DNA of 64,000 nucleotides from an uncultured delta proteobacterium (GCA_963792965.1 CAWBYW010000016.1:115925-179924); one strand, 5' to 3'. Shown: positions 28,619-46,524, numbered from the stretch's first letter. Program-made: numbers and translations. Notes: generated by a model from the sequence alone, not told the origin.

Positions 28619-29341
28619 TCAGCGCCACCCCCACTCGTATTGAACGATCGCGGCCGCCACCAGCGGCGCGGTCTCCGCCCGAAAAATGAGCCCGCCGAGG
28701 CCCGCCACAATAAGGCCGGCCTCCCGTGCGCCGGCGATCTCGGCACCCGAGAAACCGCCCTCCGGGCCGGTGAAAAGGGAGATCGTGCCGGGGGGGTCCG
28801 TCACCTCTCCGATGATCTCCTTTATTCCCCTGGTCTCCTCCTCCGAGAGGATGAGGGAAAGGCCCCCGCGAAGCTCGACGGCCTCCGAAAAAGCGAGGGG
28901 GGAATGCACCTCCAGCGCGCGGTTTCGCCGCGCCAGCCGGGACTCCTCCTCGGCGATCTTCTTCATTCGCGCAAGCTTCATGTCGCCGATATCACGCACG
29001 ATCGTCCGTGATGAAACAAAGGGAGTCACCGACGAAACGCCAAGCTCGGCCGCGTCCCGAACGAGGCGCTCCATCTTTTTCCCCTTCAGAAGCCCGATAA
29101 AGAGGTGAACGGCAAGCGAGGCCTCGGGGTGCGGCGGCATCTCTTCAATAACGACGAGCGACACCATCTTCCGTGAGACGGCCGCCGTCCGCGCCGCGAA
29201 CTCGTGCCCCCTCTCGTCCACAAGGCAGATCGTATCGCCGACCGAAAGCCTCAACACATCCCTGATATAGTGGGCCTGCTCGGACGAAGGCATGATCGCC
29301 GCCCCCGAGGAGAGCGTCCCCTTAACGAAGAGCCGCTTCAT
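28619..29341 (-). CDS. rsmE: 16S rRNA (uracil1498-N3)-methyltransferase RsmE
   Basis: MKRLFVKG...EQAHYIRDVLRLSVGD..., LFIGLLKGKKMERLVRDAAELGV and GPEGGFS motifs. Start at ATG 29339-29341 within ORF 28619..29422. Confidence 0.8.
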   Translation of the reverse strand: MKRLFVKGTLSSGAAIMPSSEQAHYIRDVLRLSVGDTICLVDERGHEFAARTAAVSRKMVSLVVIEEMPPHPEASLAVHLFIGLLKGKKMERLVRDAAELGVSSVTPFVSSRTIVRDIGDMKLARMKKIAEEESRLARRNRALEVHSPLAFSEAVELRGGLSLILSEEETRGIKEIIGEVTDPPGTISLFTGPEGGFSGAEIAGAREAGLIVAGLGGLIFRAETAPLVAAAIVQYEWGWR

Positions 29342-31483: not shown

Positions 31484-33072
31484 GTGTACGGAACGGATGA
31501 AGGATACGACGGGTGGGAGGGATATCTTGCCTTATTCATGATTTTCGCGGTCGGCACCGCCCTCAGGGCGGTCATGCTTTTTCACCAGACCGTTATCTCG
31601 CCCGATAGTCCCGGGTATATTTATAATGCCCTCGCAATCGGTAAGGAAGGGCTGAAAAGTCTCTTCGCAGGCGGTTTCGCCGGGAATTTCTCCATCTACC
31701 CCATCTTCATCTACCTTACCAATCTCGTGATCGGCGATCCGGTATTGTCCGGTCAGCTGGTCTCGCTCGTATTCGGTTCGCTCGCTATTTTGCTCGTTTA
31801 TCCCATCACGAAAGAGATAATGGGTGCGCGGGCCGGGCTCATCGTCGCCTTTCTCGTGGCCGTTCATCCGCACCTGATCAGGTATTCGGGGATGGTCCTG
31901 AAAGACTCGACCCTGATCTTCTTCGCCCTCGGGGCTGTGGCCCTGGGTCTGTTTGGGTGCACGAGAAGGAACAGGCTCCTCATCGTCCTTGCCGGGATCT
32001 TGGCATGGACCACGGCGGTCGTGCGTCTGTATGGCATCATCGTCGTCCCCTCGCTCGCTCTCGCCATCGTTGTCTATACCCTTTTTCAGAGGGAAGGGAT
32101 AAAGGAGACGCTCCTTCGTCTGGCCCTCTTTCTCTTTCCCCTGCCCGTCGTGGGGTACATCGCGTTCCTCATCTTTATCGGGCCCCACAATGAATTCTTC
32201 ATCGAGAGTTTCCTGAAGGTCCTCACCATTGTCGTATCCTTTGTTCATCAGACCGGGACCTACCGGGACCTGCTTTTGCGTGGCAATCCCGAAATCAGTC
32301 GTGGTTATCTGGACGTGATAACCCGCTATCCCCGGGTTTCGGCCGCCGTTCATTTCGTTGCTGTTTTTGGAACCGCGTTCTTTTTTTTCTTTTTCGTCCT
32401 TTTTCTGTTGGGCATCTACATTGACAGGAAAAATCTCCTCAACAAGGGCCCGCGCCTCTTCATTCTTTCGTTTGCCTCGGTATACATCTTTTTCGATCTT
32501 GCCATTCTCATGGTCTTCTTCTTCCTCACGAAAAGGCAGCTCATGCCGCTCGTTATCGTTCTTCTCCCCTGGTCGGCGCTCACGTTCGAAAGGGGCATCA
32601 CGTGGCTCACGGACTATTCGCGTGCCCGCGCAGAAGAAGAACGCGGCAGATCCTTCGGGCGACAGTTCCGCTCCTCGCCGTTATCTGGATCGTCGGCGCC
32701 TTCTCTTACACAAGTTCTCCGACCGCGGAAGGTGCGCTGCTCGGGTACAAAAGGGCGGCGGGCGAGTATATCAAGGAGACGGCAGGCGGCCATCCCCTGA
32801 TTCTTCTTCCCCACGCCGATGCCGAAGGACTGGTCGTCTTCTATGCGGGCGCCGAGGGCATATCCTTCGATGACCCGGCCACAATCGAGAAGATGATCGA
32901 TACCGATGACCCCAATATCATCTTGTGGGATACGGTCCTCGGCCCCCTGCCGAAGGAGTTTCCTCTGCTGGTTGAGCACGGCAAAATCGAGCATATCACG
33001 ACGATACCGGGCTCAGGCACCAATGTTATCTATATCTATCGGAATACCCGAAACGAAACCGGCAGGCGGTAG
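31484..33072 (+). CDS. polytopic GT39/ArnT-like glycosyltransferase (PMT_2-like), frameshifted as assembled
   Basis: ORF 31484..32800 has many TM helices with ArnT/PMT-like character. Its tail is Arg/Ser-rich sequence that looks out of frame. The overlapping frame 32602..33072 gives a further TM (VPLLAVIWIVGAFSY) and a soluble C-terminal domain. The shift lies at about 32600-32660. Confidence 0.6.
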
Positions 33073-33176: not shown

Positions 33177-33800
33177 TCAGTTGGTCGCCGGGACCACGTT
33201 GAAGGCCACGGAGGTGTAGTATTCATTGTCAAAATAGATGTCCCAGCGCCACTGACCCGTGGGGTCACCCGAGGGATTAAACCCCCAGTAGCTGGTAAAG
33301 ATGTCGCTGTCCGGCGTCAGCGTGGTGCTATAGACGGCGCGGTTCTCCGCCGGGTAGGTTTTATAGCTTCCCTCGCTCCCCTCCCAGAGGGTCCAGTTCT
33401 GGGGCGCATAGGGGAAAAACTCCTCTTCACGGTAGGAAACCGGATGTCCGCTGTTGCTTTTGTATTTGAATGAGATGCCGAAATAGGTGCTCGGGATGTA
33501 CGGTATGGTAGTCGCGTCCTCATACACGTAGAGATTTCCCGAGCCGTCGTCCTTCATCTTGCCCATCCTGAATTCAGTGATGACACACGTCGTGAGGGCT
33601 TGCGGGGGCGACATCCCGGGCCCGACCACGCTCGGCACTCCGGGCTGGGACGGCGCGCCATACGGCTGCGGGCCCGCGGGCCCCGCCTGTCCGGGTCCCC
33701 CGGCTCCTATCCCGAGCATCTGTTTGATCCTGTCGCATCCCGTCCCCGCGAAGGCCAGCGCAAGCACAAGGAGGGACAAAATAATCAGGTTCTTTCTCAT
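33177..33800 (-). CDS. hypothetical lipoprotein with Gly/Pro-rich linker
   Basis: Lipobox LAFAGTGC, a PGQAGPAGPQPYGAPSQPG linker, and an aromatic-rich C-terminal domain. Last gene of the A2M-containing strand run. Confidence 0.5.
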   Translation of the reverse strand: MRKNLIILSLLVLALAFAGTGCDRIKQMLGIGAGGPGQAGPAGPQPYGAPSQPGVPSVVGPGMSPPQALTTCVITEFRMGKMKDDGSGNLYVYEDATTIPYIPSTYFGISFKYKSNSGHPVSYREEEFFPYAPQNWTLWEGSEGSYKTYPAENRAVYSTTLTPDSDIFTSYWGFNPSGDPTGQWRWDIYFDNEYYTSVAFNVVPATN

Positions 33801-33932
33801 ATCGTGCTCCTTTATCTATAGTCTATCATAGGCCGAAAAGTAGATGTTTTTCGTATAGTAATGAAATCGGGGTCCCCTGTCAAGGGGGGAAAGACCCGAC
33901 CCACCGTTTTGACGGACGACACCGGACCCGAT

Positions 33933-34580
33933 TCAGGGCAACCGTTCCCCCCGCGTGGACGCCCGGCCCTGCCCCCCGATAACCTTTACCGCCTCCTCAT
34001 AGGCCAGCACATACCCCCACCGATTTTTCTCCCTGTCCGTCCGCTCCGAAAGGAGCGCGTCGATCTCGCCGGTGTTCCGGGTGACGGGCTTGGGTCCCGA
34101 AAGGCCCTTTTTCAACGCGTCGATCTCGCCGGCATAGTAGACCGCGAGTCCCTCCGAAAACCAGAGCGGCACGTGGGTGCCGAAACGAAGCCGGAGAAGC
34201 GCGAGACACACCTCATGGGCGACGGTCGACTTCAACACCCCGCGCTCTTTCAGGACGTTCACCGGCTGCAGGTAGATCGATCCGTCGATCATCGCCGAGG
34301 CCGACCAGAACGGCAGCCTCGTCTGGGCCGTGAAATCTCCGGTCTCCTTGAAGATCACCACGTCGATGGGACGGCCCGCGCCGCTCCCAACCCTCGTTTC
34401 CATCGCGGTGTATGCCGATTCGAGGGCGTCCTTTACCTCCGAGAGCTCGCCGGCCCGAAGGGTCTCGGCGAAATAGATATTGAAATGCCGTGTCTGGGTC
34501 TGGGCAAAGTCAAGGGCGCCTGCCTCTCGGCTGATGACGAGAAGAAGGCACGAGATCAGAAATAGGAACGGTCTTCTCAA
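33933..34580 (-). CDS. secreted protein, degenerate peptidase-MA-like (HExxL instead of HExxH)
   Basis: Signal peptide MRRPFLFLISCLLLVISREAGA. VAHEVCLALL...WFSEGLAVYYAG resembles HExxH...E zincin motifs, but the second His is Leu. Weak call. Confidence 0.35.
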   Translation of the reverse strand: MRRPFLFLISCLLLVISREAGALDFAQTQTRHFNIYFAETLRAGELSEVKDALESAYTAMETRVGSGAGRPIDVVIFKETGDFTAQTRLPFWSASAMIDGSIYLQPVNVLKERGVLKSTVAHEVCLALLRLRFGTHVPLWFSEGLAVYYAGEIDALKKGLSGPKPVTRNTGEIDALLSERTDREKNRWGYVLAYEEAVKVIGGQGRASTRGERLP

Positions 34581-35605
34581 TCCGTATGCACGCCTCCGAA
34601 ATAGACGCGGAAAACCTCCCGGGCCACCGGCGCGGCATCCTCACCCCCCCGGCCGTGGTAGAGGAAGACGACCACGGCGATCTCGGGGTTCTCGGCGGGG
34701 GCAAAACCCAAGAACCAGGCGTGAGTCGCCCAGCTGGAGCCGAGGAACTCGCCGGTGCCGGTTTTGCCCATAATCTCGTGCCCGTCCGGCGTCCCCTTGA
34801 CGGCGGTTCCGTACGCCGCCGCATCGCGCATTCCCTCGGCGAGGATCGGCGCCGCGCGGGAAACCTCTACCTTCCTGTTGAGTCTCGGCGAAAATGAACC
34901 GATATCGTCTGCGGTGGGGGTCACGCGGGGAACCCAGATACTGCCCCCGTTCACGAGGGCCGAAAGATTCACGATCACCTGAAGGGGCGTCGCCGTGACG
35001 TTGTCGGTGTCTCCGATGACATACTCACGGGCAAACGCCGGCTCGGGGGGGATGAGCCTTCCCGCCTCCTCCTGTGGAAGGTTGACCCCGGTCTTTTCTC
35101 CAAACCCGAGCTCGGAAAGCCCCCGGTAGGTGGTGTCGGCGCCCAGCGTCTCGGCAAGGGAAAGGAAATAGAGATTACACGAGTAGGCGATCCCGCGGAC
35201 AAGGTTGAGATCACCGTGTCCGGGGGGGTACCAGCAATCGTATTTCGTTCCCGATATAACGGCACTCCCGGTACACCTGAAGCGAGCGTCGGGAGAGATA
35301 CGCTTCTCTTCGATCCCTTTCCAGACGCTCACAAGCTTGACGAGCGAGCCGGGGGGAAAGGCCCAGCGTGTCGCCATGTCGGGCCCCACCATCGCTCTGA
35401 TGCGTCCCGTCTTCACGTCCATGACGACGACCGCCCCGGTCCGGCCCGCCAGGGCGTCGGATGCCGCGCTTTCGAGGAGGGCGTCGCCTTTCAACACCTG
35501 TTCCGGGCCCGGCCTGCAACCCGAGGCGAAGAGAAATAAAAGGGCGACCCCCCCGATGAGGGGTCGCCGAAAGAGTAAACGAATCCGCCGCCGGATCCCC
35601 GTCAT
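34577..35605 (-). CDS. penicillin-binding transpeptidase-domain lipoprotein (no glycosyltransferase module)
   Basis: Lipobox LFASGC. SxxK (PGSLVKL), SxN (YSCN) and KTG (GKTGTG) motifs occur in the canonical order. Overlaps the A2M stop by 4 nt. Confidence 0.75.
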   Translation of the reverse strand: MTGIRRRIRLLFRRPLIGGVALLFLFASGCRPGPEQVLKGDALLESAASDALAGRTGAVVVMDVKTGRIRAMVGPDMATRWAFPPGSLVKLVSVWKGIEEKRISPDARFRCTGSAVISGTKYDCWYPPGHGDLNLVRGIAYSCNLYFLSLAETLGADTTYRGLSELGFGEKTGVNLPQEEAGRLIPPEPAFAREYVIGDTDNVTATPLQVIVNLSALVNGGSIWVPRVTPTADDIGSFSPRLNRKVEVSRAAPILAEGMRDAAAYGTAVKGTPDGHEIMGKTGTGEFLGSSWATHAWFLGFAPAENPEIAVVVFLYHGRGGEDAAPVAREVFRVYFGGVHTD

Positions 35606-38600
35606 TTCCCCTCGGTGATGACAAGGCTTGAGCTTCCCGTCCTTCCGAAGCGGTCCGGGAAGTACATCAGGTACGCCTCGGCCGGCATGACACCGTAGGT
35701 CCCCGGGTTTTGGGCGCGGAGGATATACTTGAAGACATAGGTCCCCACGTCGACGTAGTCCATCGATAGAGCGATCCGCTCATCCCGGAATTCCCTTCCG
35801 GCAAACCACCAGTCCGCATCGCCGGTATAGAGATCGTCCCCGGAGATGACATAGTTTTTATCGTCGCTGATGGCCTCATAGCCCGCCGGGTAGTAGTCCT
35901 CCAGCAGGAAGTATTGGGCCTTCTTGTCGGTCGTGACCGAAAGCTCCACGAGGATCTCGTCCCCGCTACTGACCGGGCCGCTGAGCGGCACCTTCGCGTA
36001 GATGAGCTCTCCCTTCTTGGGCACCTTCTTGAGGAGGTAGTACTTTCTGCTCACGGCAAATCCGGCGTTCAGCGGGGCTATCGAGGGGGCCGCGCTGTAG
36101 TGCGTGAAGGTCGAGGAATAGTAGAGGCTACCCGGCCCGTCCTTCTTGATGACGATCGTATTGGGGCCGGTCTTGAGATCCCCTTCCTTGACGGTAATCG
36201 TTCCCCCCTCGGTGAGCATCGTCTCCTTGGTGATGTGGCTCTTCTTGAGCTGTTTGCCGTTGAGGGTAAGCGTCATGGTGTAGTTCGGCTTGATCTCCCC
36301 GGTCCGGGTGATGTAGTCCGTCAGGGCATAGATGATCTTCCCCGTGGCCTTGGTGGAGCGCCAGTAGCTTCCGGTCCGGTTGATGATAAGCCAGCGGATC
36401 GTCTTGGGGATGAGGGGATTATTGACGTCGCGCATGGCCATCACCCGCAAAACGTACGCGGTGGTCTCCAGGGGATCGGCCTCCCAGTCCCACCAATAGA
36501 AGTCCTCTCCGACGTAACCCCAGTGAACATAGCCGTTCTCCTGGATCTTTTCCTTCATGAGCAGGTCATACAGGACGTTGGCCTTCTCCCGGATCCCCTC
36601 GTTCTCGTAGGCCAACAGCAGCATCGCCTGAGAAATGGGGGTGAGCTTGTCGCGCTTCTCGAACATCTCGTCGAGCCACGCGGTCTTGAGCTTGTCCGTG
36701 TAGGACAAGACGTAGAGGGCGTAGACCTTGACGGAGTCCTGATCGATCTTGCTCAGCTGAGAGATGAGGGACGCGGTGCCGCGCTTGATGACGCCCTCGT
36801 CCACGGTGATGGGAATGCCTGCCTCGGGAAGGAGGCGTTTCGCTTCGAGGAGCCCGTACAACACGTAGGCGGTCATGTAGGGATCGGTCTCGTCGAACTC
36901 GTACCACCCCCAGCCGTTATCGTCGTGCTGCCGTTTGTAGAGCACCATGAGCCCGCTCTTGATGTAGGCGGGGAGGTCCTTCTCTACGCTCTTATCGGAA
37001 AGGTCAAGCTTCTTTAATACCGACGCGACCATGACTGATGGCAAGAACCTTGCCATTACCTGCTCGTTTCACCCATAGGGGTAGCCGACGAGGAATGGTA
37101 TAGCGGCAAGCATTGTGTTGACGAGCGATGGACTGGTGGTAATGGTGAGCTCAGCAGCGTTCTTTATCGTGTTGGCGGGCTTGTTGACCGTCACCGTGAG
37201 CGTCCCGGAGTCCTTGATGATCTCTCCCATATCGTTCTTTGTCTCTTTGATGCCGAGCGGGAGGATCGGCACCTTTATCTCCATTCCGTCGGAGACCTCG
37301 TTGGTCATCGCCTTTGCCGTGAGAACGGCACTTCCCACGAGGTCCGCCCTGACGTGCCAGTCGACGCGCTTCTCTCCGTTTTTCGGGACGATTGCATCGA
37401 CCGGAACGCCGGAAGCGAGCGTCAATCCCTTTGCGTCGAACGTGAAGTGCACCTTCTTGTCGGTCGACAGGTAATTATGGGCGATGGTGGAGATTACGAG
37501 GTCGTCCCCCTGGCGCAGAAATCGCGGCGCCTCTATGCGGACGAGTAAGTCCTTGCGCTCGATGACCCGGTAGGTAGTCTCCCCCATGCTGTCGCCCGTG
37601 GTCACCCCCCGGACCGTCGCACGCCAACGCGTCAGGTTGTCCGGGAAGGTGACGGTGACCGTGGCCATACCCTTTGCGTTGGTCGTGATCGTGGGCGACC
37701 AGTACATCGTGTCCTTGAAGTCCTTTCGGATCAGCGGTTGAACGAGCGTGTCTCCCTTGAAGTCGGCAAGCTTCGTCTCTTTTTCCGGAAGTCCCGCCAG
37801 GAGTCCTTTCCGGTGAGAGTATCCGTAAAAGCGGAAGTAGAGGGATGACGACGTGTCCACGGAATGATAGCGCAGCGAGTAGAAATACTTCTGGATTTCG
37901 TCGACAAGCTCCGGTGAGATGGCGTAGATGGCGTCGTCCACGACGCCGAGCGACACCTCTGCCGACACGGGTTTGCCTGTGCTGTCCGTCGTCTTTATCG
38001 TAAAGGTGCCCTTTTCTTGCGGCTCGTACGTCGCCTTATTGGAGGTCACCTCGACGTTGATGAACTTTTCGGTCGGTGGGATGATGATGTTCTTGCTGTC
38101 CGAATAGAGCTCATCGTTGAAGATCGCGGCAACCGAGAGGTAGATGTTGGGGGTGTATCTCTCCTTTATGGGGAGATCCAGCATCGCCGTGCCACCCGTG
38201 GCTTTGATGACTCGGCTATCAAGGATCGAGTCTCCCTCGGTGGTAATCAACAGATAGGTATCCTTCACCGGCGCGGCGATCAGGATGTGGGCGGTATCGC
38301 CCACCGCGTAGGTATCCTTGTCGGGGATAATCGTGACGCCGCCCTCCGACGTCCCGCCGTAGGCATACCCCTCCGTAAAGGAATACGATGAGTCCTTGGC
38401 CGTGGTGGAGTTGCCCGCGTTATCGAAGACCGTGGCGATGAAATTGACGTCGCCCACGTTTTTCACCGTATATTCGATGACGGCGTCCCCACCGGAGTTC
38501 GTCCTTCCCGAAAGGGTGGCCGAGCTCGTGACCTTGCCCCCCTGCCAGTCGGTCTCCGTGACGATGAGCGTCACCGGCACATTCGCCACACCCTTGTTGT

Positions 38601-40242
38601 CAAAGTCGGAGACGTTGACCGTGATCCGCGCCTTATCCCCCGGCGCGTAGACCCAGCGGTCGGGACGTAGCGAAACGGTGTAGTTTGACCGAACGACCTT
38701 GACGACGCTGCTGGTGGTAACCACCCGGCGCGAGAGATCGGTAACGTTGGCCTCGATGGTGAAGGTATAGTCGTTGTCGGGCGACTCAAGGTATTGCGAC
38801 GTGTCTACCGTGAGCCTGAGCTTCCCGGCGTTGTCGAGCATAGCCGTGCCACTGTCCACCATGACCTTCTCGGTGGCGGTCCAGTAGTCTTCGTCCATGA
38901 AGTACCAGCCCCAGTCGTACCCCCACCACCAGGGGCGCTCGTAGACCGACCGGTAGACCGTATAGTCCACCTTGGCCTCCGTTACGGGGCTGCCGAAGTA
39001 GTAGCCCGCCTCGATATCGGCCGTGATCGTGTCGCCCCGGATGTAGACGTTCTTATCCGTCCTGATCTTGACCTCGTATTCGGGCTTCTTGTACTCCTCC
39101 ACCTTGAAGCTGTTGTAGTAGTTCTGTCCATTCAGTCCCACGACGATCTGATATTCGCCGAGCGAGGGCTCCTCTCCGAGGGTGAAGTCCCCCGAGAGGC
39201 TCCCGTACTTATTAATCTTATAGTTGTTCCGGAAGACCTCGTCGCCCTTGGCGTCGTCGATGATGACCAGGTAGTCGTCGCCGGTGTCGGGAACCTTCAG
39301 CCCCGAGTCGGTGGCGTTTCTCAGGATCGAGCGAAAATGCACCGTGTCGCCGGGACGGTAGACGGGTCGGTCGGTGTAGGTGTAGACCTTGTCGCTTGCT
39401 TCCCCTTCCCCGTAGGCATAGGGGTCGGCCAGGGTGAAGTTCTCGCCGTCCTGGGCGAAGACATAGATGACGTCACTCTCGGTCGCTTTCACCTTGGAGT
39501 AGTAGATCCCGTCGGAGTCCGTCTTCCCCTTGAAGAGGAGTTTTTTCTGGTTGTCGTAGACCGATACCTTAACGCCTTTCATCGGTTTGCCGGTTACCCG
39601 GTCGGCCACGTAGATAAGGCTGTCGGTGCTCGAGTTCTTCACGACAAACGACATGGGGGTAACGACGACCATCGTATAGGCCACCGAATCCTCAAAGACC
39701 GCCTCGACGAGGTAGCACCCCGGTTTCGGGACTTTGACGTCTATGTTGTGGTACTCCCACTGTCCACTGCCCGAGATGACCAACTTCTCCTGCCAGCGGT
39801 TGAGGAGCTTGAACTGGGTCAGGATCGGGAAGAGCTCGTAGGTCTGTGGCGCGGGTGAGACGGGCTCCTGGGCGTGCGGCAGGCCGAGTGCCGAGACGAC
39901 ATCGTCTCGGATGTTGTCGGAGAGTTTTGAGCGATAGTCGTCCCGGAAGAGTTCTACCCCCTTCCGTTTGATCGCCCCAACCATCTCGGCGGGGGCCGAT
40001 GTCCCCCGTTTCGTCGTCACCACCGGCGAGTGGACGTCATCGAGCCCGAGGAAGTACGATTTCGGATCGTCTACCCGGTAGAGCCGGATATCGAGGGACG
40101 GGACATCCATGGAGGAAACGGTGACGGTGACGGGCTCCCCCGGAGCGAAGATCTTGTCCGTGGAGAGCTCAAAGGAGCCTGCGAGCGTCACGGCCGGCAG
40201 TGTTAAGAGCAATACGATCGAAAGAATAAGGGACTTTTTCAT
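35602..40242 (-). CDS. bacterial alpha-2-macroglobulin family protein with an in-frame TGA at the thioester Cys position (candidate selenoprotein)
   Basis: ORFs 37069..40254 (signal peptide MKKSLILSIVLLLTLPAVTLAG after GAGGGA, then MG-domain-like beta-rich repeats) and 35602..37056 are in the same frame. They are separated only by TGA (37069-37071) and 4 sense codons. Read-through gives LVGYPYG-[TGA]-NEQVMARFLPSV, matching the YPYGCxEQ thioester motif. No frameshift was seen across ~4.6 kb. Confidence 0.85.
37038..37071 (-). other. in-frame UGA (37069-37071) plus candidate SECIS hairpin (37038-37056)
   Basis: On the mRNA the order is UGA, then 12 nt, then AUGGCAAG-GUU-CUUGCCAU. This is a perfect 8-bp stem; the apical loop is GUU, or GGUUC if the closing pair opens. 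As I recall it, the E. coli fdhF SECIS is UGA, 11 nt, then GGUUGCA-GGUC-UGCACC. Confidence 0.5.
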
Positions 40243-40485
40243 AGTTTCCCTCAAAGAATGGAGTATATCGTTGTTTGGTCTGTCACCGTGAGAGTGCGCG
40301 GCGACCGCGGCAATCCCCGGCTGTCGTTACCGATACGGAGGTAATAAGGATCCTTCCTCGAGAATCAGGGCTCGCCTCGTTGTGCCACATCGCCTGGCCT
40401 CCCACGATTCGGGCAGGAACGTTCCCCTGCAATGACCGAGAAGAGCTCCCACGATACTTTGGACCTCAAAAGCACCTATAAAGCT

Positions 40486-41619
40486 TTAGTTCAGTATCTT
40501 GAACCGATAATAACCCAAAAAATGGTCGTTCTCTCTTACCGGCCGCCAGCGCTCGTCCGGATGCACTTTGAGCGTGGCGAGCCTGACCTTCCTCACGTCC
40601 CCGTTATCGTGGGAGCGCGGGCCGGTGTGATAGACGAGCCAATCTTCGTTTACGTCCGAATCGCTCTCCTTTCCCCACTCGCCGAGGTAGATCATCATAT
40701 GGGAGGGCATCCGGGGGTTTTCCGGGTTGAAGAAAAAGAGGAGATCACCGGGAAGAATACCCTTCTCGGTTCGCCCGAGGAACACGACGTTGTACTGAAG
40801 CAGCGCCTCGGCCGATGCCGCCGCAGAAAAGTTGACGCCGATATCGGAAGGGACAAACGGCCCCGGCGCCGTCCGAAAGACATCGACTCCCAGCAGCGGC
40901 ACGTGGGGATAGGTGTACTTCTTCACGTCGGGATTTGCGGGGCTGACCAGCGTCGCGTAGGAGGAAAAGAAAGCGTCGTCGTGGCGCTTGAGCGCCTCGA
41001 CATAGGCAAAACGCACAAGCCCCGCACAGTCCCGGTTGATCTGGTCCCAGTGGCGGTTCTTCTCGTAGACTTGAGATTCCGCGATGGCGCAGAGCCACCG
41101 CCGGAAGTTGAGGCGGTCTGTGTCGCCGAAGAGCTCCACCACATCGGGAAACCCGTCCCCGTCCCGGTCACGCATGTCGGGGATAACATTCACCTGTGCC
41201 CGGGCAGGCGCCACCCCCGGAGACTCGGCCCGGATCGTGAGGTCACCCGTCTCGAAGGTCGAGATGAGCGTGAGGGAGGCCGTTCCGCGGACAAACGCGA
41301 GCGGTCCTGTTTCCACCCTTGTCGTCGCCGGGCCGACAAGCGTCACCGTAAGGGGTGCGCCGCAGCCGCGCGCAACATTCCCCCTGTCGGTCTTTGCAAG
41401 GATCGTGATCTCCACGGTATCTTCCTTGTTGGCCCAGAGCGTCTGCTTTGACACGGCGATCTCGATGCTTTTGGCCTTTGCGCACGACGTGATCAAACAG
41501 GCCAACAGGAGCGTCGAAAGGATCGCCGCTCCGCCTTTAATCCAGGTCCTTGACCCTGATCTTAAACCCGCCTTGAATTGCATCACCGCTGAAGTTGACC
41601 CCCCCGTAGCATGAGACAA
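40486..41619 (-). CDS. DUF1175-like lipoprotein (Ig-like domain, DxDxDG Ca-type motif, NlpC/P60-like Cys region)
   Basis: Lipobox LITSC. DRDGDGFPD motif. FRRWLCAIAESQ...INRDCAGLVRFAYVEAL matches my recollection of DUF1175 (E. coli YfaT, encoded next to the A2M homolog YfaS). The likely start is the internal ATG at 41583. Confidence 0.55.
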   Translation of the reverse strand: MSHATGGSTSAVMQFKAGLRSGSRTWIKGGAAILSTLLLACLITSCAKAKSIEIAVSKQTLWANKEDTVEITILAKTDRGNVARGCGAPLTVTLVGPATTRVETGPLAFVRGTASLTLISTFETGDLTIRAESPGVAPARAQVNVIPDMRDRDGDGFPDVVELFGDTDRLNFRRWLCAIAESQVYEKNRHWDQINRDCAGLVRFAYVEALKRHDDAFFSSYATLVSPANPDVKKYTYPHVPLLGVDVFRTAPGPFVPSDIGVNFSAAASAEALLQYNVVFLGRTEKGILPGDLLFFFNPENPRMPSHMMIYLGEWGKESDSDVNEDWLVYHTGPRSHDNGDVRKVRLATLKVHPDERWRPVRENDHFLGYYRFKILN

Positions 41620-43280
41620 AAGATCTTCTGGTCAGTTCCACGAGCGGCACGAGCCGCTTTTCCGAATCCTGGTAGAGAAAGTATTTATAGTTTGCCGAGA
41701 TGTTGACGAGATAACCCTCGATCAACGACATGGCGTTGTTCCCGTCTACGTAGAGATAGAGGTCGTAGGCGTCTTTCGGCATGTCTTTTTGCGCCGAGAT
41801 GAACGCGGGCGACTTCACGAGAAAATCGCGGTCAAAAAGGCCGCCCGCCCCCGTCATCGAGGAAATAACAGAGAGGTCGTTGAGCTGCTCCATCGTCGAA
41901 AGGTCCCAGAAGAGGAAGAGCCTGTCATCCTTGAGCGCAAAACCAGGATTAGGCTTGACGGAGGCGACGTACGACGTCCCGTTCCAATCGAGGCTCTTTT
42001 CCCTGAACTGGCCCATATAGGAGATGTGAGCGGCGTCAAGCTCGAGGGGAGACGGGCCCGCATCTGAAGAATGAATAGCTGTAGAGCTTGCCGATATTGG
42101 TGGAAAGGGCCTCTTCTTTGCCCGGTGCCACCCCAACGGAGGCGATCGTCCTGAGGTACGGTTTTTCTCCCTCATACCCGATCCCGACGAGGGCCGCCAG
42201 CGCCCCCCTGCCGAGGTTGTTGATGATTCCACCCTCCAGGTCGAATCCGCCCTTGTCCTTCCATTTTTTCAGGATCGAGATGTAGTTTACCTTTTGGGCG
42301 ATGTCGGTAAACCAGACCTTCCCGAAATGGGTATAAAGGATGCCGGGGTCGAAGGCCCGAAACGCCACGAGCGCCGCCGTCTCGCCGGGCATCGCCGATA
42401 GGTCTATTGTCGCCTTATCGGAGAGCGACCCCAGCCCCGCCAGGAGGCTTTTCCCCTCGCCCCCGGTGTAGGGGGCAAAGAGCGTGATATCCGCGCCGGC
42501 CTCGGAAAAGGTGACCGAGAAAAGGAGCGCGTCCGTCCCCTTGAGAAGCCGTCTGGCATGGGCGACGATGCCCATCTCGGAGTCATCGGGGCTCATCGCC
42601 TTCGTTGAATAGAAAAGGATATGGTAGTCCTTTGGCAGGTGGGAGAGCCGATCCATGACGGCGGGGTTTCCGGAGAGGTTCTTTGGGTTTTGCCCCGTAA
42701 CGATGTCCCACTCGGATTTGAAGAGATCGGGGGAGTCGGAGACGATCGTATAGCCTTTGACGTTCTTGTAATAGATCTTCTTGTCTGTGCTCGCGACAAC
42801 CCAGACGGAATAGGAGCCCCAGTTTTCCTTCGTCACGTGGCTCGAAAAGATCGAAAAGAGGTTGATGAGAAAACCCTTAAACCAGCCCGTCTCAAGCAGC
42901 GCCGCCGAGGCCTCCTTTCCCTCGAGGGTCGTCCGATAGAAGACGGCCCGCGCACCTATGACCCACAGGAAGCGTTTCAGGGTCGGGCGAATCCCGGTCA
43001 TCTTCTCGATAGTCCCGAGCCTGGAGAGCATCGGGGCCGAGAGGTCGCTCTTGATCGGGCCCTCAAAGAGCGAAAGATCGCCGACTTCATCAAAATAATC
43101 GCTTGAGAGCAACGGCCTCAATCCTGCCCTGAGGTCCCTGAGGTAGACGAAGGAGTCTACGTTCTCCGGGATGATCTGATAGAGCTCGTAGGCGTCTCCG
43201 GCCACGGCACTAAGGGCCCCAAGCGAAAGGGCCGCGATAACGACCGCGCCGATCAGACATGCCCTGATCTTAGATCTCAT
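41537..43280 (-). CDS. secreted hypothetical protein (~580 aa, possibly DUF2138/YfaA-like by position), one frameshift as assembled
   Basis: ATG at 43278-43280 after GGAGGG, with signal peptide MRSKIRACLIGAVVIAALSLGALSAVAG (ORF 42036..43322). The frame changes near 42075 into ORF 41537..42232 (…AIHSSDAGPSPLELDAAHISYMGQF…). The family assignment rests on gene order only. Confidence 0.4.
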
Positions 43281-43299
43281 GAATCCCTCCTTTTCTCCG

Positions 43300-43890
43300 C
43301 TATCGGCCGATGGGGCCCGCAAATGACTCGGGATCGGCCCCCGCCCGGAGGATCGTATTGTAGTACCTCAGCGTGACGATGTGAATCACCCGCTCGCGCA
43401 TAGTATCGGGGGTCGCCTTCATGAGAGCGGGGAGGTCCTTGTAGAAATCCTTCAGCGACTCGTTCACGTCGCTCTTCATCTCGGGCGTCGGCGCGCCGGC
43501 ACGACCGAGGCCCGGAGGTTCTTGTATTCGTCCCACTCGGCGTCAAGGATGACGTCCAGCGCGTCTCCCACGGCACCTGTGTCCGTCCCGCCGGGCTGGC
43601 TGTAGTCCGTACCCGACGGCGTCTCGGAGACCGTGGGAGGCACAAGCATCCTGGTCCCGGGCGGCGGCGATCATCTCCCACTCGTGGCGAGGGACGTCCG
43701 GATCTCGCTTTTGCGGCTTGGGATAGCCCGCCTTGATCTGATCGATCGCAAGGGTAACGTCGGCAAAGACCCCCCCGACCTTCGGACCCTTCTCTCCGGG
43801 CGCGGGCGCCTTTTTTTCGCAGGCCCACGAGAAGATCAAGAGAAACGAGAGGAGCCCAAGAATCGGCCAGAGCAGTCCCGGTCGGGCGCT
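43300..43890 (-). CDS. hypothetical lipoprotein, two frameshifts as assembled
   Basis: Pieced from ORFs 43543..43839 (…LLIFSWACEKKAPAPGEK…HEWEMIAAARD), an unlisted third-frame stretch (…VSETPSGTDYSQPGGTDTGAVGDALDVILDAEWDEYKNL…) and 43300..43536 (…EMKSDVNESLKDFYKDLPALMK…). The 236-aa Arg-rich ORF 43277..43987 is the off-frame read. The 5' end is uncertain. Confidence 0.35.
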
Positions 43891-43911: not shown

Positions 43912-44779
43912 TCAGGATCGGCCGAGCGCCGAGAGGATCTCGGCCAGCGCCCGATCCGAGCGATACGTATTGGTCTTGATGTTCCATCCCTTCTCCTTCA
44001 AACCGATTAAGAGCTGGGTAACCTCGGGCAGAAACGGCCTCACGCCGTCGAGCGCCGCCCGGTCGGAAAAGAGTTCTTCCGGGGTGCTGTCTAGTTTGAT
44101 CTTCCCCTTCTCGATAACGACGATCCGGTCGGCCACCCGGATGATTTCTTCCATGTCATGGGAGATGATGATGACGGTCTTGTTCTTGGCGTTGAGGGCC
44201 TTGATGTGCCGGATGGTCTCGGTCCTCGACTGGGGATCAAGTCCCTGGGTGGGCTCGTCGAATATGAGTATGGGAGGATCCATAGCGAGGATCGAGGCGA
44301 TGGCGACCTTGCGCTGCTCACCGCCGGAAAGGGTGAACGGCGAGCGCGTCCTGAGCCGGTCGATGTCAAGGTTGACGAGGCCTGCCGCATCACGACACTC
44401 GCCTTTCGACCTCCTCTTTCGAAAAACCCCCTCGGTTGACGAGGGAAAACGCGATCTCTTTCTCGACCGTCTCCTCAAAGAGCTGGTGCTCGGGATACTG
44501 AAAGACGAGCCCTACCATTTCCCGCAGCCTGCCGGTCTTCTTGGTGGCGGGCGTCAGGTCAAAATCACCGACGCGGACGCTCCCCTTCGCGGGCGTCAGC
44601 AGTCCGTTGAGGTGCAGCGCCAGCGTCGTCTTCCCCGAGCCGGTGCGCCCGATCAGCGCGACGAACTGGCCCTCCTCGATCGAGAGGTTCACCCCCGAGA
44701 GCGCCTCCTTTTCCAGCGGCGTATTGGGGAAAAAGACATGCGAGAGGTCTTTTATCTCGATGAGCGGTGCGGTCGTCAT
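43912..44779 (-). CDS. ecfA: ECF-transporter-type ABC ATPase (EcfA-like), one frameshift as assembled
   Basis: ORF 44390..44779 carries Walker A GRTGSGKTT and Q-loop VFQYPEHQLF. ORF 43912..44478 carries LSGGEQRKVAIASILA and ILIFDEPTQGLD. The frames join near 44400. Confidence 0.75.
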
Positions 44780-45033
44780 GAGACTTTGTAGACCATGTCG
44801 CCCGGCCGAACCCTGTCTTTGATCTTGATCCCCACGAGTGCGCCTGACGCGACCTCGGTTACCGGGGCGTTGTCGATCTGCATCGACTCCACCACTTCCG
44901 TGAAATCGGTCGTCGCACCCTTGAAGCGGAGCTCGTCCCCAACCTTGAGGGAGCCCTCGACCTTTATGGCGGCAACCGACGGCTTGGCAAAGAACTTGAT
45001 GACCTCTCCGATTTTTACCTCACTTGACATCAC
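44776..45033 (-). CDS. small EF-Tu domain-2-like beta-barrel protein
   Basis: 85-aa ORF. GSLKVGDELRFKG...VESMQIDNAPVTEVASGALVGIKIKDRVRPGDMVY follows the translation-factor domain II pattern. 4-nt overlap with ecfA. Confidence 0.5.
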   Translation of the reverse strand: MMSSEVKIGEVIKFFAKPSVAAIKVEGSLKVGDELRFKGATTDFTEVVESMQIDNAPVTEVASGALVGIKIKDRVRPGDMVYKVS

Positions 45034-45052
45034 ACTCCTCCTCCCGTGGTAG

Positions 45053-46524
45053 TCAGCATGATCTATCCTTATTCATTCCCTTCTCATGGCCGACAGGATT
45101 CCGTTTGCGAGGTCCGTGACCTCCCTCTCCAGGACGGTTCGAGGATCGATGACGAGGCTCTCGTCCGAGATTCGTGCGATAATGGTCGGATGCTTGCGTC
45201 CTCAAGCGTCTCTCGAGCGCCTCGGGGCTCTCGGCCAGCGGAGCAATCGTTACCACCCTTGTCGGGATCTGTGCGGTGGGAAATGCCCCGCCGCCCACTC
45301 CCGAGAAGTCATCGGCGGTCGTGACGTGGAACTTCGGATGGGGCGTGGCCGCCAGCAGCTTCACGATCCTTTTGGCCCTTTTCTTCGTCTCGTCATAGGA
45401 CATCGTAATCATCGCCAGGACCGGGATCTTTTTTCGCGCATCAAACGGGTCCCGATAAATCATCAGGGTCGATTCGACGGCGGCAAGCGACAGCTTATCG
45501 ATCCTCACGGCCCGCGCCAGTGGGTTCTTTTTAATGCGGTCCGATCGGGTCCGCCTCCCCTACGATGAACCCCGCCTGGGCACCGCCCAACAGCTTATCG
45601 CCCGAAAAACGTAATGACATCGACGCCCGATTTAATCACTTCCGAGACGGTCGGCTCATGGGGGAGGCCCCAGGGCCCGAGATCCATGAGCGAGCCGCTG
45701 CCGAGGTCCTCCATGACCGGGATGTCATATTTTTTCCCGAGCCCGACGAGCTCGGCGGTCGACACTTCCTCGGTGAACCCGACGATCCGGTAATTGGAGG
45801 TGTGGACCTTGAGGAGGAGCGCGTCTGGCCGACCCGATGGCGCTCTCGTAGTCCGAAAGCCCTCGTCCGGTTCGTCGTGCCGACCTCTCTGAGGCGCGCG
45901 CCGCTCTTTTCCATGACATCCGGGATACTAAAAGCGCCGCCGATCTCCACCAGCTCTCCCCGTGAGACGATGACGTCCCTGCCGTCGGCAAGAGTATTGA
46001 GCGCAAGCAACACGGCCGCGGCGTTGTTGTTGACCGCAAGGCCCGCCTCCGCGGAGGTGATATGGGCGATCAGGTCGGAAACGTGGTCGTGGCGGGATCC
46101 CCGCTCTCCGCGCTCGACGTTGAATTCGAGATTGGAATAGCCCGAGGCGATGCGTACGATATGCTCGAGGGCCTCCGCGGCGAGGGGCGCGCGGCCGAGG
46201 TTTGTATGCAAGATAATCCCCGTGGCGTTGATGACGGGCGCAAGCTGACGGCGTGACCGATTTGATCAGCCACTGCTCGATGAGCGACAAGAGCTCCGGC
46301 TCCGAGACTTCGGCGGGATGCTCTTTGGACATGAGCTCTTTTCGCGCGGACAAAATGGCGCCTCTCACCGCCTCCTTTACCACCATCCTCGGAAAGCGCC
46401 TCGATAGTTCCGTGACCATGGGGTGAGCCAGCAGCTTATCCACCGCGGGGAGTTTGGCGAGAGGGGATTTTTGTGCCGGGTTTTCCGACTTTCTTGGCAT
46501 GGCGCCGCTCGAGATTTTTTCCAT
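45053..46524 (-). CDS. selA: L-seryl-tRNA(Sec) selenium transferase SelA, about 6 frameshifts as assembled (possible pseudogene)
   Basis: SelA-diagnostic peptides are spread over all three frames. They include: KLPAVDKLL...[11 protein letters not shown]; [19 protein letters not shown]; [18 protein letters not shown]; [15 protein letters not shown]; [18 protein letters not shown]; EVGTTNRT; [16 protein letters not shown]; [16 protein letters not shown]; [24 protein letters not shown]. Shifts lie near 46245, 45860, 45835, 45600, 45545 and 45195. The restored stop is at 45073. Confidence 0.8.

What the first reader, a model, noticed from the sequence alone, without database searches (positions are those of the whole stretch)
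33177..43322. A2M island combining features of both known bacterial A2M operon types
Two bacterial A2M contexts are established. Thioester-bearing A2M (E. coli YfhM type) is paired with the penicillin-binding protein PBP1C. YfaS/MagD-type A2M, which often lacks the thioester, sits in multi-gene operons with DUF1175, DUF2138 and other DUF proteins. Here one strand run encodes, in order: a lipoprotein; a DUF2138-like secreted protein (assigned by position); a DUF1175-like lipoprotein; an A2M with a (U/C)NEQ site; a transpeptidase-only PBP lipoprotein (SxxK/SxN/KTG, no glycosyltransferase module) overlapping the A2M stop; a degenerate zincin-like secreted protein (HEVCL); and another lipoprotein. 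A hybrid architecture with a truncated PBP partner is unusual. It suggests a periplasmic protease-trap plus wall-repair module with extra components.
Basis: partly seen in the sequence, partly recalled or inferred. Interest (0 to 1): 0.55.

Follow-up and report, generated by a model that had tools for sequence, protein, structure and literature searches.

The report
Selenocysteine macroglobulin wall-defence operon
This conserved gene cluster pairs a periplasmic protease-trapping macroglobulin, whose reactive cysteine is encoded as selenocysteine, with cell-wall-binding and wall-repair-type proteins; the layout is a widespread but undescribed relative of the Pseudomonas Mag operon, not a rare hybrid.

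Summary
The genes are real, but the parse and the interpretation need correcting. The "lipoprotein" and the "DUF2138-like protein" are one ~587-aa gene, split in this assembly by a 1-nt insertion. It shows no DUF2138 signal; its distant relatives match DUF3352. DUF1175/MagC, the A2M and a transpeptidase-only lipoprotein with SxxK/SxN/KTG are confirmed.

The PBP is class-B-like, not PBP1C-like. In relatives it is fused to SpoIID and to an HExxH…E domain. That three-part module matches E. coli YfaQ / Pseudomonas MagE piece by piece. The A2M itself scores closer to MagD/YfaS than to YfhM.

So this is a Mag-type operon that kept its thioester and recognisable partner enzymes. It is not a splice of the two known types, and it is common: 38 of 55 well-flanked Acidobacteriota-dominated loci carry MagC, a CxEQ A2M, the transpeptidase and the HExxH protein together.

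The most striking feature is the thioester codon, which is TGA. Six independent relatives (58–80% identical) share the TGA plus 32 invariant downstream bases that form a SECIS-like hairpin. An 86%-identical relative has TGC and a decayed hairpin. That implies a selenocysteine "selenoester" warhead, which I could not find in the selenoprotein literature I searched.

The parts
41537..43322 (-). One gene for a ~587-aa envelope protein ('p587') with an N-terminal hydrophobic helix. The likely start is the ATG at 43280. In this assembly a 1-nt insertion near 42064 splits it. It sits where MagB/YfaA sits in Mag/Yfa operons but is not detectably DUF2138.
40486..41619 (-). MagC/YfaT-type lipoprotein: an Ig-like N-terminal domain plus a DUF1175 (NlpC/P60-like) domain. 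The true start is probably an internal ATG around 41583.
   Evidence: Pfam DUF1175 E=5.4e-61, with weak Big_1/Invasin_D3 and NLPC_P60 matches. It is 72% identical to the L003 orthologue. A MagC gene lies immediately upstream of the A2M in 65 of 80 surveyed loci.
35602..40242 (-). Alpha-2-macroglobulin of 1546 codons. It has an SPase-I-type signal peptide with no lipobox Cys. The thioester motif is U-N-E-Q.
   Evidence: Domains. The continuous reading frame across the TGA is shown. The full-length Cys homologue P0002 reads GYPYGCNEQ. Scores: 181-211 bits against MagD/YfaS and 73 bits against YfhM.
37069..37071 (-). In-frame TGA at the thioester cysteine position; predicted selenocysteine codon.
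   Evidence: Homologues P0003-P0012 (58-80% identical) all end at ...GYPYG. The TGA is present in L003, L004, L087, L088, L089 and L090. The 86%-identical L002 has TGC. The gene's own terminator is also TGA, so TGA is an ordinary stop codon in this genome.
37037..37068 (-). SECIS-like element. A 12-nt spacer is followed by the hairpin AUGGCAAG-GUU-CUUGCCAU at 37056..37038.
   Evidence: Predicted fold. The TGA plus 32 nt is invariant in 6 distinct Sec loci, including 11 consecutive third-codon positions. Flanking windows have 10-11 of 11 third positions variable. The hairpin is disrupted in the Cys form L002.
34577..35605 (-). Stand-alone class-B-type transpeptidase-domain lipoprotein (SLVK, SCN, KTG). 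Its start overlaps the A2M stop as ATGA. It is the probable equivalent of the N-terminal part of MagE/YfaQ.
   Evidence: Pfam Transpeptidase E=3e-46. NCBIfam pbp2_mrdA E=1e-60 against PBP_1a_fam at 1e-12. It is fused to SpoIID, and often to the HExxH domain, in relatives. hhalign against the YfaQ N-terminus gives 75-84% probability, E~1e-5, aligning SxxK, two Cys and SCN/SCG-YF. A YfaQ N-terminal HMM finds only a TP ORF among 9521 ORFs.
35543..35568 (-). GC-rich hairpin followed by a U-tract, about 35 nt after the A2M stop and inside the 5' end of the transpeptidase gene. It may be a partial terminator or attenuator.
   Evidence: 11 bp, 9 of them GC, followed by CTTTTATTTC. Hairpins at the same position but with different sequences, followed by a U-rich stretch, occur in L089, L090 and L002.
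33933..34580 (-). 215-aa secreted protein ('p215'). It is a degenerate member (HEVCL...EGLA) of an HExxH-x19-E family and is related to DUF2300. Its start overlaps the transpeptidase stop by 4 nt.
   Evidence: Weak Peptidase_MA_2 matches. Acidobacterial relatives keep an intact HExxH...EGL, while the second His is lost throughout the deltaproteobacterial clade. The L061 member matches Pfam DUF2300 at E=1e-8, above the gathering score. MagE/YfaQ C-termini carry HEYLH...EGLA.
33177..33800 (-). 207-aa lipoprotein of the PM0630 family (PF27186), separated by a 132-nt gap that holds a promoter-like site. It is restricted to the deltaproteobacterial version of the cluster.
   Evidence: Orthologues are annotated PF27186. 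It is 59% identical to L003. The promoter-like site is at 33883..33855. None of the 80 surveyed loci has a homologue.

Best explanation
The locus is a periplasmic envelope-defence operon of the Mag/Yfa ("Type II") lineage that has kept features the gammaproteobacterial versions lost.

Its core is MagC (DUF1175, a wall-binding NlpC/P60-like lipoprotein), then the A2M, then a wall-enzyme module. In this clade the module is split into a transpeptidase-domain lipoprotein and a degenerate HExxH-family protein. In Acidobacteriota the module is TP + SpoIID + HExxH...E, often in one polypeptide. E. coli YfaQ and Pseudomonas MagE are most likely a decayed form of that same module.

Shown here:
- Gene content and conserved synteny across phyla.
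- Domain fusions between the partner proteins.
- Greater sequence affinity of the A2M to MagD/YfaS than to YfhM.
- The thioester motif.
- A conserved TGA with a SECIS-like hairpin.

Inferred:
- The A2M is exported and its bait region is cut by an invading protease or other attacking enzyme.
- The buried Sec-Gln selenoester is then exposed and acylates a lysine on the attacker, trapping it covalently. A selenol is a better leaving group than a thiol, so capture should be faster.
- MagC holds the complex at the peptidoglycan.
- The transpeptidase, plus SpoIID and the metallopeptidase domain in relatives, repairs or remodels the damaged wall.
- A terminator-like hairpin after the A2M stop may lower expression of the enzymes relative to the trap.
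For: - Synteny with intact orthologous clusters in L002, L003, L087, L089 and L090.
- MagC: E=5e-61.
- The A2M scores 181-211 bits against MagD/YfaS and 73 bits against YfhM.
- Survey: 65 of 80 loci have MagC, 50 of 80 the TP and 49 of 80 the p215-like gene. Among 55 well-flanked loci, 38 have all three. All 80 A2Ms carry CxEQ.
- The TP is fused to SpoIID in L018, and TP, SpoIID and p215 share one ~900-1000-aa ORF in Blastocatellia.
- YfaQ is DUF2300-SpoIID-DUF2300.
- The SpoIID parts align at 95% probability. The TP N-terminus aligns to the YfaQ N-terminus at 75-84% probability, with SxxK and SCN/SCG aligned.
- A p215-family member passes Pfam's DUF2300 threshold.
- TGA and SECIS conservation, and decay of the hairpin in the Cys form.
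- selA lies adjacent.
- The mag operon protects P. aeruginosa against peptidoglycan-targeting T6SS effectors (PMC12663445).
Against: - No MagB/DUF2138 or MagA/MagF (DUF2135) homologue is detectable.
- The TP-YfaQ and p215-DUF2300 links rest on moderate scores. The first is 75-84% probability. The second is one member above threshold, while the profile-profile comparison of p215 with YfaQ gives only 3.6%.
- SpoIID is absent from this clade's cluster.
- The second zinc-binding His of p215 is lost, so that protein is probably not catalytic.
- There are no expression or biochemical data.
- The survey took the 80 loci most similar to this A2M, and one of its two search patterns required CxEQ. The frequencies therefore describe this subfamily, not all bacterial A2Ms.
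- In this assembly selA and p587 are frameshifted.
- Higher reactivity of a selenoester is chemical reasoning, not something tested here.
Confidence: 0.65

Rival explanations
1. One reading: a true hybrid that joins the Type I pairing (thioester A2M plus a PBP1C-derived partner that lost its glycosyltransferase) to Type II accessory genes.
For: A thioester motif and a transpeptidase next to a DUF1175 gene. The literature recognises only the two contexts.
Against: - The TP resembles the PBP2/class B transpeptidase domain (E=1e-60), not class A (1e-12), and no PBP1C model is listed.
- tblastn with E. coli PbpC finds nothing in any of the 82 loci.
- The TP is fused to SpoIID and HExxH domains in relatives and aligns with YfaQ.
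- The A2M is closer to MagD/YfaS than to YfhM.
- The A2M is not a lipoprotein, unlike YfhM.
Confidence: 0.1
2. The TGA is a nonsense mutation or an assembly error, so the A2M is a pseudogene or a split gene. The island would then be decaying, in line with the frameshifts elsewhere in the window.
For: The window carries several frameshifts, including one in p587 and two in selA. Gene callers annotate two ORFs of 1057 and 484 aa.
Against: - The same TGA occurs in six independently assembled relatives that are 58-80% identical.
- The downstream 484 codons remain 82% identical to L003, as conserved as the upstream part.
- The 32 nt after the TGA are invariant and fold into a hairpin at SECIS spacing.
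- The C-terminal fragment would have no signal peptide.
- The NEQ codons follow the TGA in frame.
Confidence: 0.05
3. The transpeptidase-domain protein is not a wall-repair enzyme. It could be a beta-lactam-binding or sensing protein, a DD-carboxypeptidase or endopeptidase, or a non-catalytic adaptor that docks the A2M complex on peptidoglycan stem peptides, much as MagE affects MagD stability.
For: - It lacks the N-terminal pedestal and membrane anchor that class B PBPs use to work with SEDS polymerases.
- It gives weak matches to class D beta-lactamase and BlaR models.
- Deleting MagE changes MagD levels and processing in P. aeruginosa (PMC5764988).
- In YfaQ the corresponding region has lost SxN (SCG) and everything after it.
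Against: All three catalytic motifs are retained in the window protein. SxxK and a K[T/S]G motif are present in nearly all TP ORFs from the surveyed loci. The domain is linked to SpoIID, a peptidoglycan-remodelling domain.
Confidence: 0.2

Closest known systems
Type II bacterial A2M operons: P. aeruginosa magABCDEF and E. coli yfaA-yfaT-yfaS-yfaQ-yfaP
   Same: - The order MagC/YfaT (DUF1175), then the A2M, then a wall-enzyme-like protein.
- The A2M is secreted without a lipobox.
- The A2M sequence is closer to this type (181-211 bits).
- The gene upstream of MagC encodes a ~60-kDa protein with one N-terminal hydrophobic helix, like MagB.
- The TP and p215 together probably correspond to MagE/YfaQ.
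   Different: - The thioester motif is present, as Sec.
- No DUF2138 or DUF2135 (YfaP_C) proteins.
- The MagE-equivalent is split into two genes, keeps SxxK/SxN/KTG and lacks SpoIID.
- There is an extra PM0630 lipoprotein.
Type I bacterial A2M: E. coli YfhM/ECAM or Salmonella SaA2M, paired with PBP1C
   Same: A CxEQ-type reactive site in the TED domain, a bait region, and a penicillin-binding-type transpeptidase encoded directly downstream.
   Different: - The partner is a class-B-like transpeptidase domain only, not a bifunctional class A PBP1C.
- The A2M is not a lipoprotein.
- Similarity to YfhM is only 73 bits.
- A MagC gene is present.
Acidobacteriota MagC - A2M(CxEQ) - TP/SpoIID/HExxH clusters (loci L008, L018, L080 and others found here; I found no description of them in the literature searched)
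   Same: The same A2M subfamily (32-36% identity). MagC is directly upstream. The same TP family, with the two conserved Cys between SxxK and SxN. The same HExxH...EGL family.
   Different: Their reactive residue is Cys, not Sec. SpoIID is present and HExxH is intact. The enzyme genes are often fused, or lie on the convergent strand. They have no p587 or PM0630.
Bacterial selenoproteins with Sec/Cys homologue pairs and an fdhF-type SECIS
   Same: An in-frame UGA aligned with Cys in close homologues. A hairpin with a G/U-containing apical loop starts 12 nt after the UGA. selA is in the neighbourhood.
   Different: The Sec would not act as a redox centre. It would form an intramolecular acyl (selenoester) bond with a Gln side chain. 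No A2M or thioester protein appears in the selenoproteome reviews I checked.

Membership tests
Type I bacterial A2M system (YfhM/ECAM + PBP1C) | CxEQ thioester motif in the TED domain | tested here: met
   GYPYG-U-NEQ in the window. CNEQ in the 59%-identical P0002. The Cys position is encoded by TGA.
Type I bacterial A2M system (YfhM/ECAM + PBP1C) | Adjacent pbpC encoding a bifunctional class A PBP (glycosyltransferase + transpeptidase) | tested here: not met
   Only a 342-aa transpeptidase domain. The best models are PBP2/class B, and neither a GT51 domain nor a PBP1C model is matched. tblastn with PbpC is negative in all loci.
Type I bacterial A2M system (YfhM/ECAM + PBP1C) | The A2M is a lipoprotein and groups with YfhM by sequence | tested here: not met
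   The signal peptide MKKSLILSIVLLLTLPAVTLAG has no Cys. phmmer gives 73 bits against YfhM and 181-211 bits against MagD/YfaS.
Type II Mag/Yfa operon | A2M lacking the thioester cysteine | tested here: not met
   U/C-N-E-Q is present. The MagD/YfaS sequences fetched have no CxEQ.
Type II Mag/Yfa operon | DUF1175 (MagC/YfaT) gene immediately upstream of the A2M | tested here: met
   Pfam DUF1175 E=5.4e-61.
Type II Mag/Yfa operon | DUF2138 (MagB/YfaA) gene upstream of MagC | tested here: not met
   No Pfam hit at E<=5. BLASTP is not significant. hhalign gives 1.7% and 0.2%. Remote relatives match DUF3352. Only position, size and the N-terminal helix resemble MagB. A fold comparison was not possible because the AFDB library was unavailable.
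Type II Mag/Yfa operon | DUF2300/SpoIID protein (MagE/YfaQ) downstream of the A2M | tested here: inconclusive
   - The window's TP and p215 give no direct DUF2300 hit.
- The TP alignment matches the YfaQ N-terminus at 75-84% probability.
- The SpoIID parts of fused relatives match at 95%.
- One p215-family member matches DUF2300 at E=1e-8.
- The p215 profile against YfaQ gives only 3.6%.
Type II Mag/Yfa operon | DUF2135/YfaP_C proteins (MagA, MagF) | tested here: not met
   tblastn with YfaP is negative. hhalign of p215 and of PM0630 against a YfaP alignment gives <2%.
Bacterial selenoprotein gene | In-frame UGA aligned with Cys in homologues, with a conserved reading frame downstream | tested here: met
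Bacterial selenoprotein gene | SECIS stem-loop just downstream of the UGA, under selection | tested here: met
   An 8-bp hairpin with a GUU loop starts 12 nt after the UGA. TGA+32 nt is invariant in 6 loci while the flanks vary at nearly all third positions. The hairpin is lost in the Cys form. The comparison with the fdhF SECIS spacing comes from my own knowledge.
Bacterial selenoprotein gene | Sec machinery present; Sec actually incorporated | not testable with these tools
   selA is adjacent but frameshifted in this assembly, and intact in relatives. selB, selC and selD were not sought; the window has no tRNA gene. Incorporation needs 75Se labelling or mass spectrometry.
Class B penicillin-binding protein | SxxK, SxN and KTG motifs in a transpeptidase domain | tested here: met
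   SLVK, SCN and KTG. Pfam E=3e-46. pbp2_mrdA E=1e-60 over model positions 300-592.
Class B penicillin-binding protein | N-terminal membrane anchor plus pedestal (dimerisation) domain | tested here: not met
   The protein is 342 aa. The match covers only the C-terminal half of the PBP2 model. The N-terminus is a lipoprotein-type signal (FASGC).
Zincin (Peptidase_MA-like) metallopeptidase, for the 215-aa protein | HExxH plus a downstream Glu ligand | tested here: not met
   The window has HEVCL...EGLA. The second His is lost in all five deltaproteobacterial members and intact in about 45 acidobacterial relatives. Pfam matches are below threshold.

The most novel reading that the evidence does not exclude
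The A2M is a genuine selenoprotein. Its selenocysteine forms an internal selenoester with the neighbouring glutamine. This would be a natural acyl-selenide "warhead" that traps attacking enzymes faster than the thioester of every known A2M, complement or TEP protein, and it would be a non-redox use of selenocysteine. In addition, this clade and its acidobacterial relatives would represent the ancestral, enzymatically intact form of the Mag/Yfa system. That would identify MagE/YfaQ as a decayed transpeptidase-SpoIID-metallopeptidase.
Probability: 0.5. Interest if true: 0.85.

Novelty: new variant of a known kind. Interest (0 to 1): 0.65.

Why it matters
**The two-type scheme.** Bacterial A2Ms are currently sorted into thioester-plus-PBP1C and thioester-less-plus-Mag-proteins. 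This locus and its many acidobacterial relatives show a third and probably older arrangement: a thioester A2M with MagC and a transpeptidase/SpoIID/HExxH module.

**What MagE/YfaQ is.** MagE/YfaQ has been listed as a protein of unknown function. The relatives suggest a concrete identity, a decayed peptidoglycan-enzyme module. That fits the recent finding that the mag operon protects against peptidoglycan-targeting T6SS effectors (PMC12663445).

**A selenoester warhead.** Replacing the thioester cysteine with selenocysteine would be the first protein selenoester I know of, and a rare non-redox role for selenium. Natural Sec/Cys pairs at 86% identity (L090 and L002) provide a ready-made comparison for measuring what selenium contributes to covalent trapping.

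Tried and rejected
- **DUF2138 assignment of the 587-aa protein.** Pfam at E<=5, BLASTP, a profile search of 1.84 billion proteins that returned only 13 relatives, and hhalign against YfaA and a 4-sequence DUF2138 alignment were all negative. Only DUF3352 emerged.
- **Metagenome scan for diverse YfaA homologues.** It returned only near-identical E. coli copies and was wasted.
- **Equivalents of MagA/MagF.** hhalign of p215 and PM0630 against YfaP found no similarity.
- **HMMs built from gammaproteobacterial YfaQ middle and C-terminal parts.** They found no p215 ORFs. The p215 HMM against YfaQ was not significant (E~1.5), although the HExxH...EGLA motifs pair up.
- **Profile of the p215 family against PDB sequences.** Nothing significant.
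- **RNA searches.** Rfam found no family in the window and ARAGORN found no tRNA.
- **Source contig.** Look-up by exact protein failed, and cluster look-up gave no taxonomy.
- **Upstream ABC ATPase.** I considered it part of the system but rejected it, because it is an ordinary ECF-transporter ATPase.
- **Literature.** One search was wasted by a loose term setting.

Full report
**1. What is in the sequence**

All relevant genes lie on the minus strand.

- Pfam confirms a DUF1175/MagC lipoprotein with an Ig-like N-terminal domain at 41619..40486 (E=5e-61).
- It confirms a complete bacterial A2M domain set (bMG3, MG2, bMG5, bait region, A2M, TED, bMG10) across two adjacent ORFs, 40254..37069 and 37056..35602.
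- It confirms a 342-aa protein at 35605..34577 that contains only a transpeptidase domain (E=3e-46).
- The 215-aa ORF at 34580..33933 gives a sub-threshold Peptidase_MA_2 match.
- The first two ORFs and the last one give nothing.
- NCBIfam places the transpeptidase with the C-terminal half of PBP2/MrdA (E=1e-60), far above class A models (1e-12). No PBP1C model is listed.
- The catalytic motifs SLVK, SCN and KTG can be read directly in the translation.

**2.

Orthologous clusters were fetched from other assemblies: L002, L003, L087, L089 and L090. Each encodes a single 585-604-aa protein where the window has two overlapping ORFs, 43322..42036 and 42232..41537.

tblastn shows the window copy switching frame at 42054-42064. 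A DNA alignment shows a 1-nt insertion there. The "lipoprotein" and the "DUF2138-like protein" are therefore one gene.

The same comparison shows frameshifts in selA, an ECF-type ATPase, a kinase-like gene and a PMT_2 gene of the window. This assembly is indel-prone, and that caveat applies to any pseudogene argument.

**3. The DUF2138 assignment fails**

- The intact 587-aa orthologue has no Pfam match even at E<=5, and no significant BLASTP similarity to E. coli YfaA.
- A profile search of 1.84 billion representative proteins finds only 13 relatives.
- The most distant of those match DUF3352, for example P0145 at E=2e-22.
- hhalign gives 1.7% probability against YfaA, and 0.2% against an alignment of four DUF2138 proteins taken from canonical Mag/Yfa operons.
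- An AlphaFold model (pLDDT 79.5) resembles the Treponema lipoprotein TP0453 and other lipid-binding-type folds. The AlphaFold database library that would allow comparison with YfaA/MagB was unavailable.

What remains is analogy only. The gene sits directly upstream of MagC, encodes about 64 kDa and has one N-terminal hydrophobic helix. MagB shares all three properties (PMC3735191).

**4. What the PBP and the HEVCL protein really are**

I fetched 80 loci from GTDB species representatives that encode the closest A2M relatives. They are 31-38% identical (best aligned segment), mostly Acidobacteriota, and all carry CTEQ or CVEQ.

- 65 have a MagC gene directly upstream of the A2M.
- 50 have a homologue of the window's transpeptidase, and 49 a homologue of the 215-aa protein, within a few kb downstream.
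- Among the 55 loci with enough flanking DNA, 38 have all three and 49 have MagC.
- None has a tblastn match to YfaA, YfaQ, YfaP or PbpC.

In these relatives the transpeptidase is fused to, or followed by, a SpoIID domain. In Blastocatellia the transpeptidase, SpoIID and the 215-aa-type domain share one ~900-1000-aa ORF.

The 215-aa family has a conserved HExxH-x19-EGL signature. The second His is replaced (HEVCL, HETAL, HEVAL) in every member of the window's deltaproteobacterial clade. "Degenerate zincin-like" is therefore accurate for this clade.

E. coli YfaQ and its Pseudomonas counterpart MagE are annotated DUF2300-SpoIID-DUF2300. Comparison with the relatives gives these results:

- The SpoIID parts align at 95% probability (E=2e-8).
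- The first ~100 residues of YfaQ after the signal peptide align with the N-terminal part of the A2M-linked transpeptidases at 75-84% probability (E~1e-5). SxxK pairs with GSLWK, two cysteines pair up, and SCN-YF pairs with SCG-YF.
- An HMM of that YfaQ segment picks out only a transpeptidase ORF among 9521 ORFs.
- One member of the 215-aa family (L061) matches Pfam DUF2300 over the full model at E=1e-8, above the gathering score.
- MagE/YfaQ C-termini end in HEYLH...EGLA. Profile scores for this last link are weak (3.6%).

Taken together, MagE/YfaQ is most simply a decayed transpeptidase-SpoIID-HExxH protein. The window's two genes are then a split form of the same module that lacks SpoIID.

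**5. Which A2M type**

phmmer scores of the window A2M are 181-211 bits against three MagD/YfaS proteins, which lack CxEQ. The score against E. coli YfhM is 73 bits. In the PDB the protein is about as distant from YfhM as from eukaryotic A2M, CD109 and TEP1. Its signal peptide has no lipobox cysteine; MagD also lacks one, whereas YfhM has one.

The literature recognises Type I (thioester, with PBP1c) and Type II (no thioester, magABCDEF) (PMC5764988). The present cluster belongs to the Type II lineage by A2M sequence and by MagC, but it keeps the thioester. I therefore read it as a thioester-retaining, enzymatically more intact relative of the Mag operon, not as a recombinant of the two types. 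I found no description of this arrangement in the papers searched.

**6. The selenocysteine codon**

The A2M frame is interrupted only by a TGA at 37071..37069, exactly where the thioester Cys belongs: GYPYG-TGA-NEQ.

- Eleven homologue clusters at 58-100% identity are annotated as 1057-1063-aa proteins. The four whose sequences I fetched all end in GYPYG.
- The one full-length close homologue has GYPYGCNEQ.
- In seven loci the TGA is followed by the identical 32 nt AACGAGCAGGTAATGGCAAGGTTCTTGCCATC.
- That stretch folds into an 8-bp hairpin with a GUU loop starting 12 nt after the UGA. From my own knowledge, this spacing and loop type resemble the E. coli fdhF SECIS.
- Across six distinct loci, eleven consecutive third-codon positions there are invariant. 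Flanking windows vary at 10-11 of 11 third positions.
- L002 is 86% identical in protein to the Sec-type L090. It has TGC, and six further substitutions in the first 30 nt (four more within the 32-nt element, two just past it) break the hairpin.
- The C-terminal 484 codons are as conserved as the N-terminal part: 82% against 80% relative to L003. On their own they would lack a signal peptide.
- The gene's real terminator is also TGA, so this is not a reassigned codon.
- selA lies a few genes upstream in the Sec and Cys forms alike.

These are the standard criteria for a bacterial selenoprotein. A 2026 review of the prokaryotic selenoproteome and the deep-Sep paper contain no mention of macroglobulin, A2M or thioester, and direct searches found nothing. 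I did not check supplementary tables.

**7. Likely mechanism**

*Shown:* gene content, synteny, fusions, motifs, and the TGA with its SECIS-like hairpin.

*Inferred from established A2M chemistry and from the Mag literature:*

- The exported A2M carries a buried Sec-Gln selenoester.
- Cleavage of its bait region by an incoming enzyme exposes the bond, which acylates a lysine on the attacker.
- Selenol is the better leaving group, so capture should outrun hydrolysis.
- MagC is NlpC/P60-like (weak NLPC_P60 match) and would tether the system to peptidoglycan.
- The transpeptidase, with SpoIID and the metallopeptidase domain in relatives, would re-crosslink or trim damaged wall.

This fits the finding that the mag operon protects P. 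aeruginosa from peptidoglycan-targeting T6SS effectors (PMC12663445).

Start and stop codons overlap by 4 nt at the A2M/TP and TP/p215 junctions, which suggests translational coupling. A strong terminator-like hairpin at 35568..35543 recurs at the same position with different sequences in relatives. It may lower expression of the enzymes relative to the trap.

**8. Limits**

- There are no expression or protein data.
- The TP-YfaQ and p215-DUF2300 links are probable, not proven.
- The neighbourhood survey covers only the 80 loci most similar to this A2M and was partly seeded with a CxEQ pattern.
- The organism is known only as a Deltaproteobacteria-like MAG lineage, judged from the source names of P0002 and P0122.
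- The window's own selA and p587 are frameshifted.

**9. Verdict**

One gene was mis-split and one family assignment is wrong. The "unusual hybrid" interpretation gives way to a common, undescribed, thioester-retaining Mag-type operon.

Noticed in passing
window 37071..37037 (- strand): The thioester Cys codon of the A2M is TGA, followed by a perfectly conserved SECIS-like hairpin. Relatives show a Sec/Cys pair at 86% identity, L090 against L002. This implies a selenocysteine-based 'selenoester' A2M, which I could not find in the selenoprotein literature searched.
   Followed up: yes
window 35568..35543 (- strand); L089, L090 and L002 just after the A2M stop: A GC-rich hairpin plus U-tract lies about 35 nt after the A2M stop, inside the signal-peptide-coding start of the transpeptidase gene. 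It is conserved in position and structure but not in sequence (in L087 only a longer-looped GC hairpin without a clear U-tract). It may be an attenuator that sets the A2M:enzyme ratio.
   Followed up: partly
window about 42064, 46500..45076, 44764..43918, 49403..47839 and 31526..33054: Five genes are frameshifted relative to intact orthologues in L003: p587, selA (two shifts), an ECF ATPase, a kinase-like gene (two shifts) and PMT_2. This is either an indel-prone assembly or real decay. If the selA frameshifts are real, they would block Sec decoding in this organism.
   Followed up: partly
window 46500..44785 (- strand); L002, L003, L087 and L090: selA and a conserved 84-86-aa protein with an EF-Tu domain-2-like barrel sit a few genes upstream of the A2M cluster in both the Sec and the Cys forms. 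Whether this linkage has a function is unknown.
   Followed up: no
L005 2149-3798 (E. coli yfaQ); L171-L173: YfaQ/MagE (DUF2300-SpoIID-DUF2300) appears to be a decayed three-part protein. It has an N-terminal remnant of a transpeptidase domain (GSLWK, SCGLYF), a SpoIID domain, and a C-terminal HEYLH...EGLA motif like the HExxH family found next to acidobacterial A2Ms.
   Followed up: partly
L018 5894-8845; L008 5360-7330: In acidobacterial clusters the gene upstream of MagC is not p587-like. It is a large TPR/YfiO-like protein in L018. In L008 a Ser/Thr-kinase-TPR-TolB_N protein lies nearby on the opposite strand. The upstream partner therefore varies between lineages.
   Followed up: no
window 40485..40243: The gap between the MagC stop and the A2M start is 243 nt in the window, against 35-124 nt in relatives. 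I did not examine its content. Rfam found nothing there.
   Followed up: no
window 29322..31316 (- strand); L002, L003, L088 and L090 downstream flanks: A CHASE2-guanylate/adenylate cyclase gene lies just beyond the cluster in the window and relatives, and a FecR-like gene in L002, L088 and L090. They could be regulatory neighbours.
   Followed up: no
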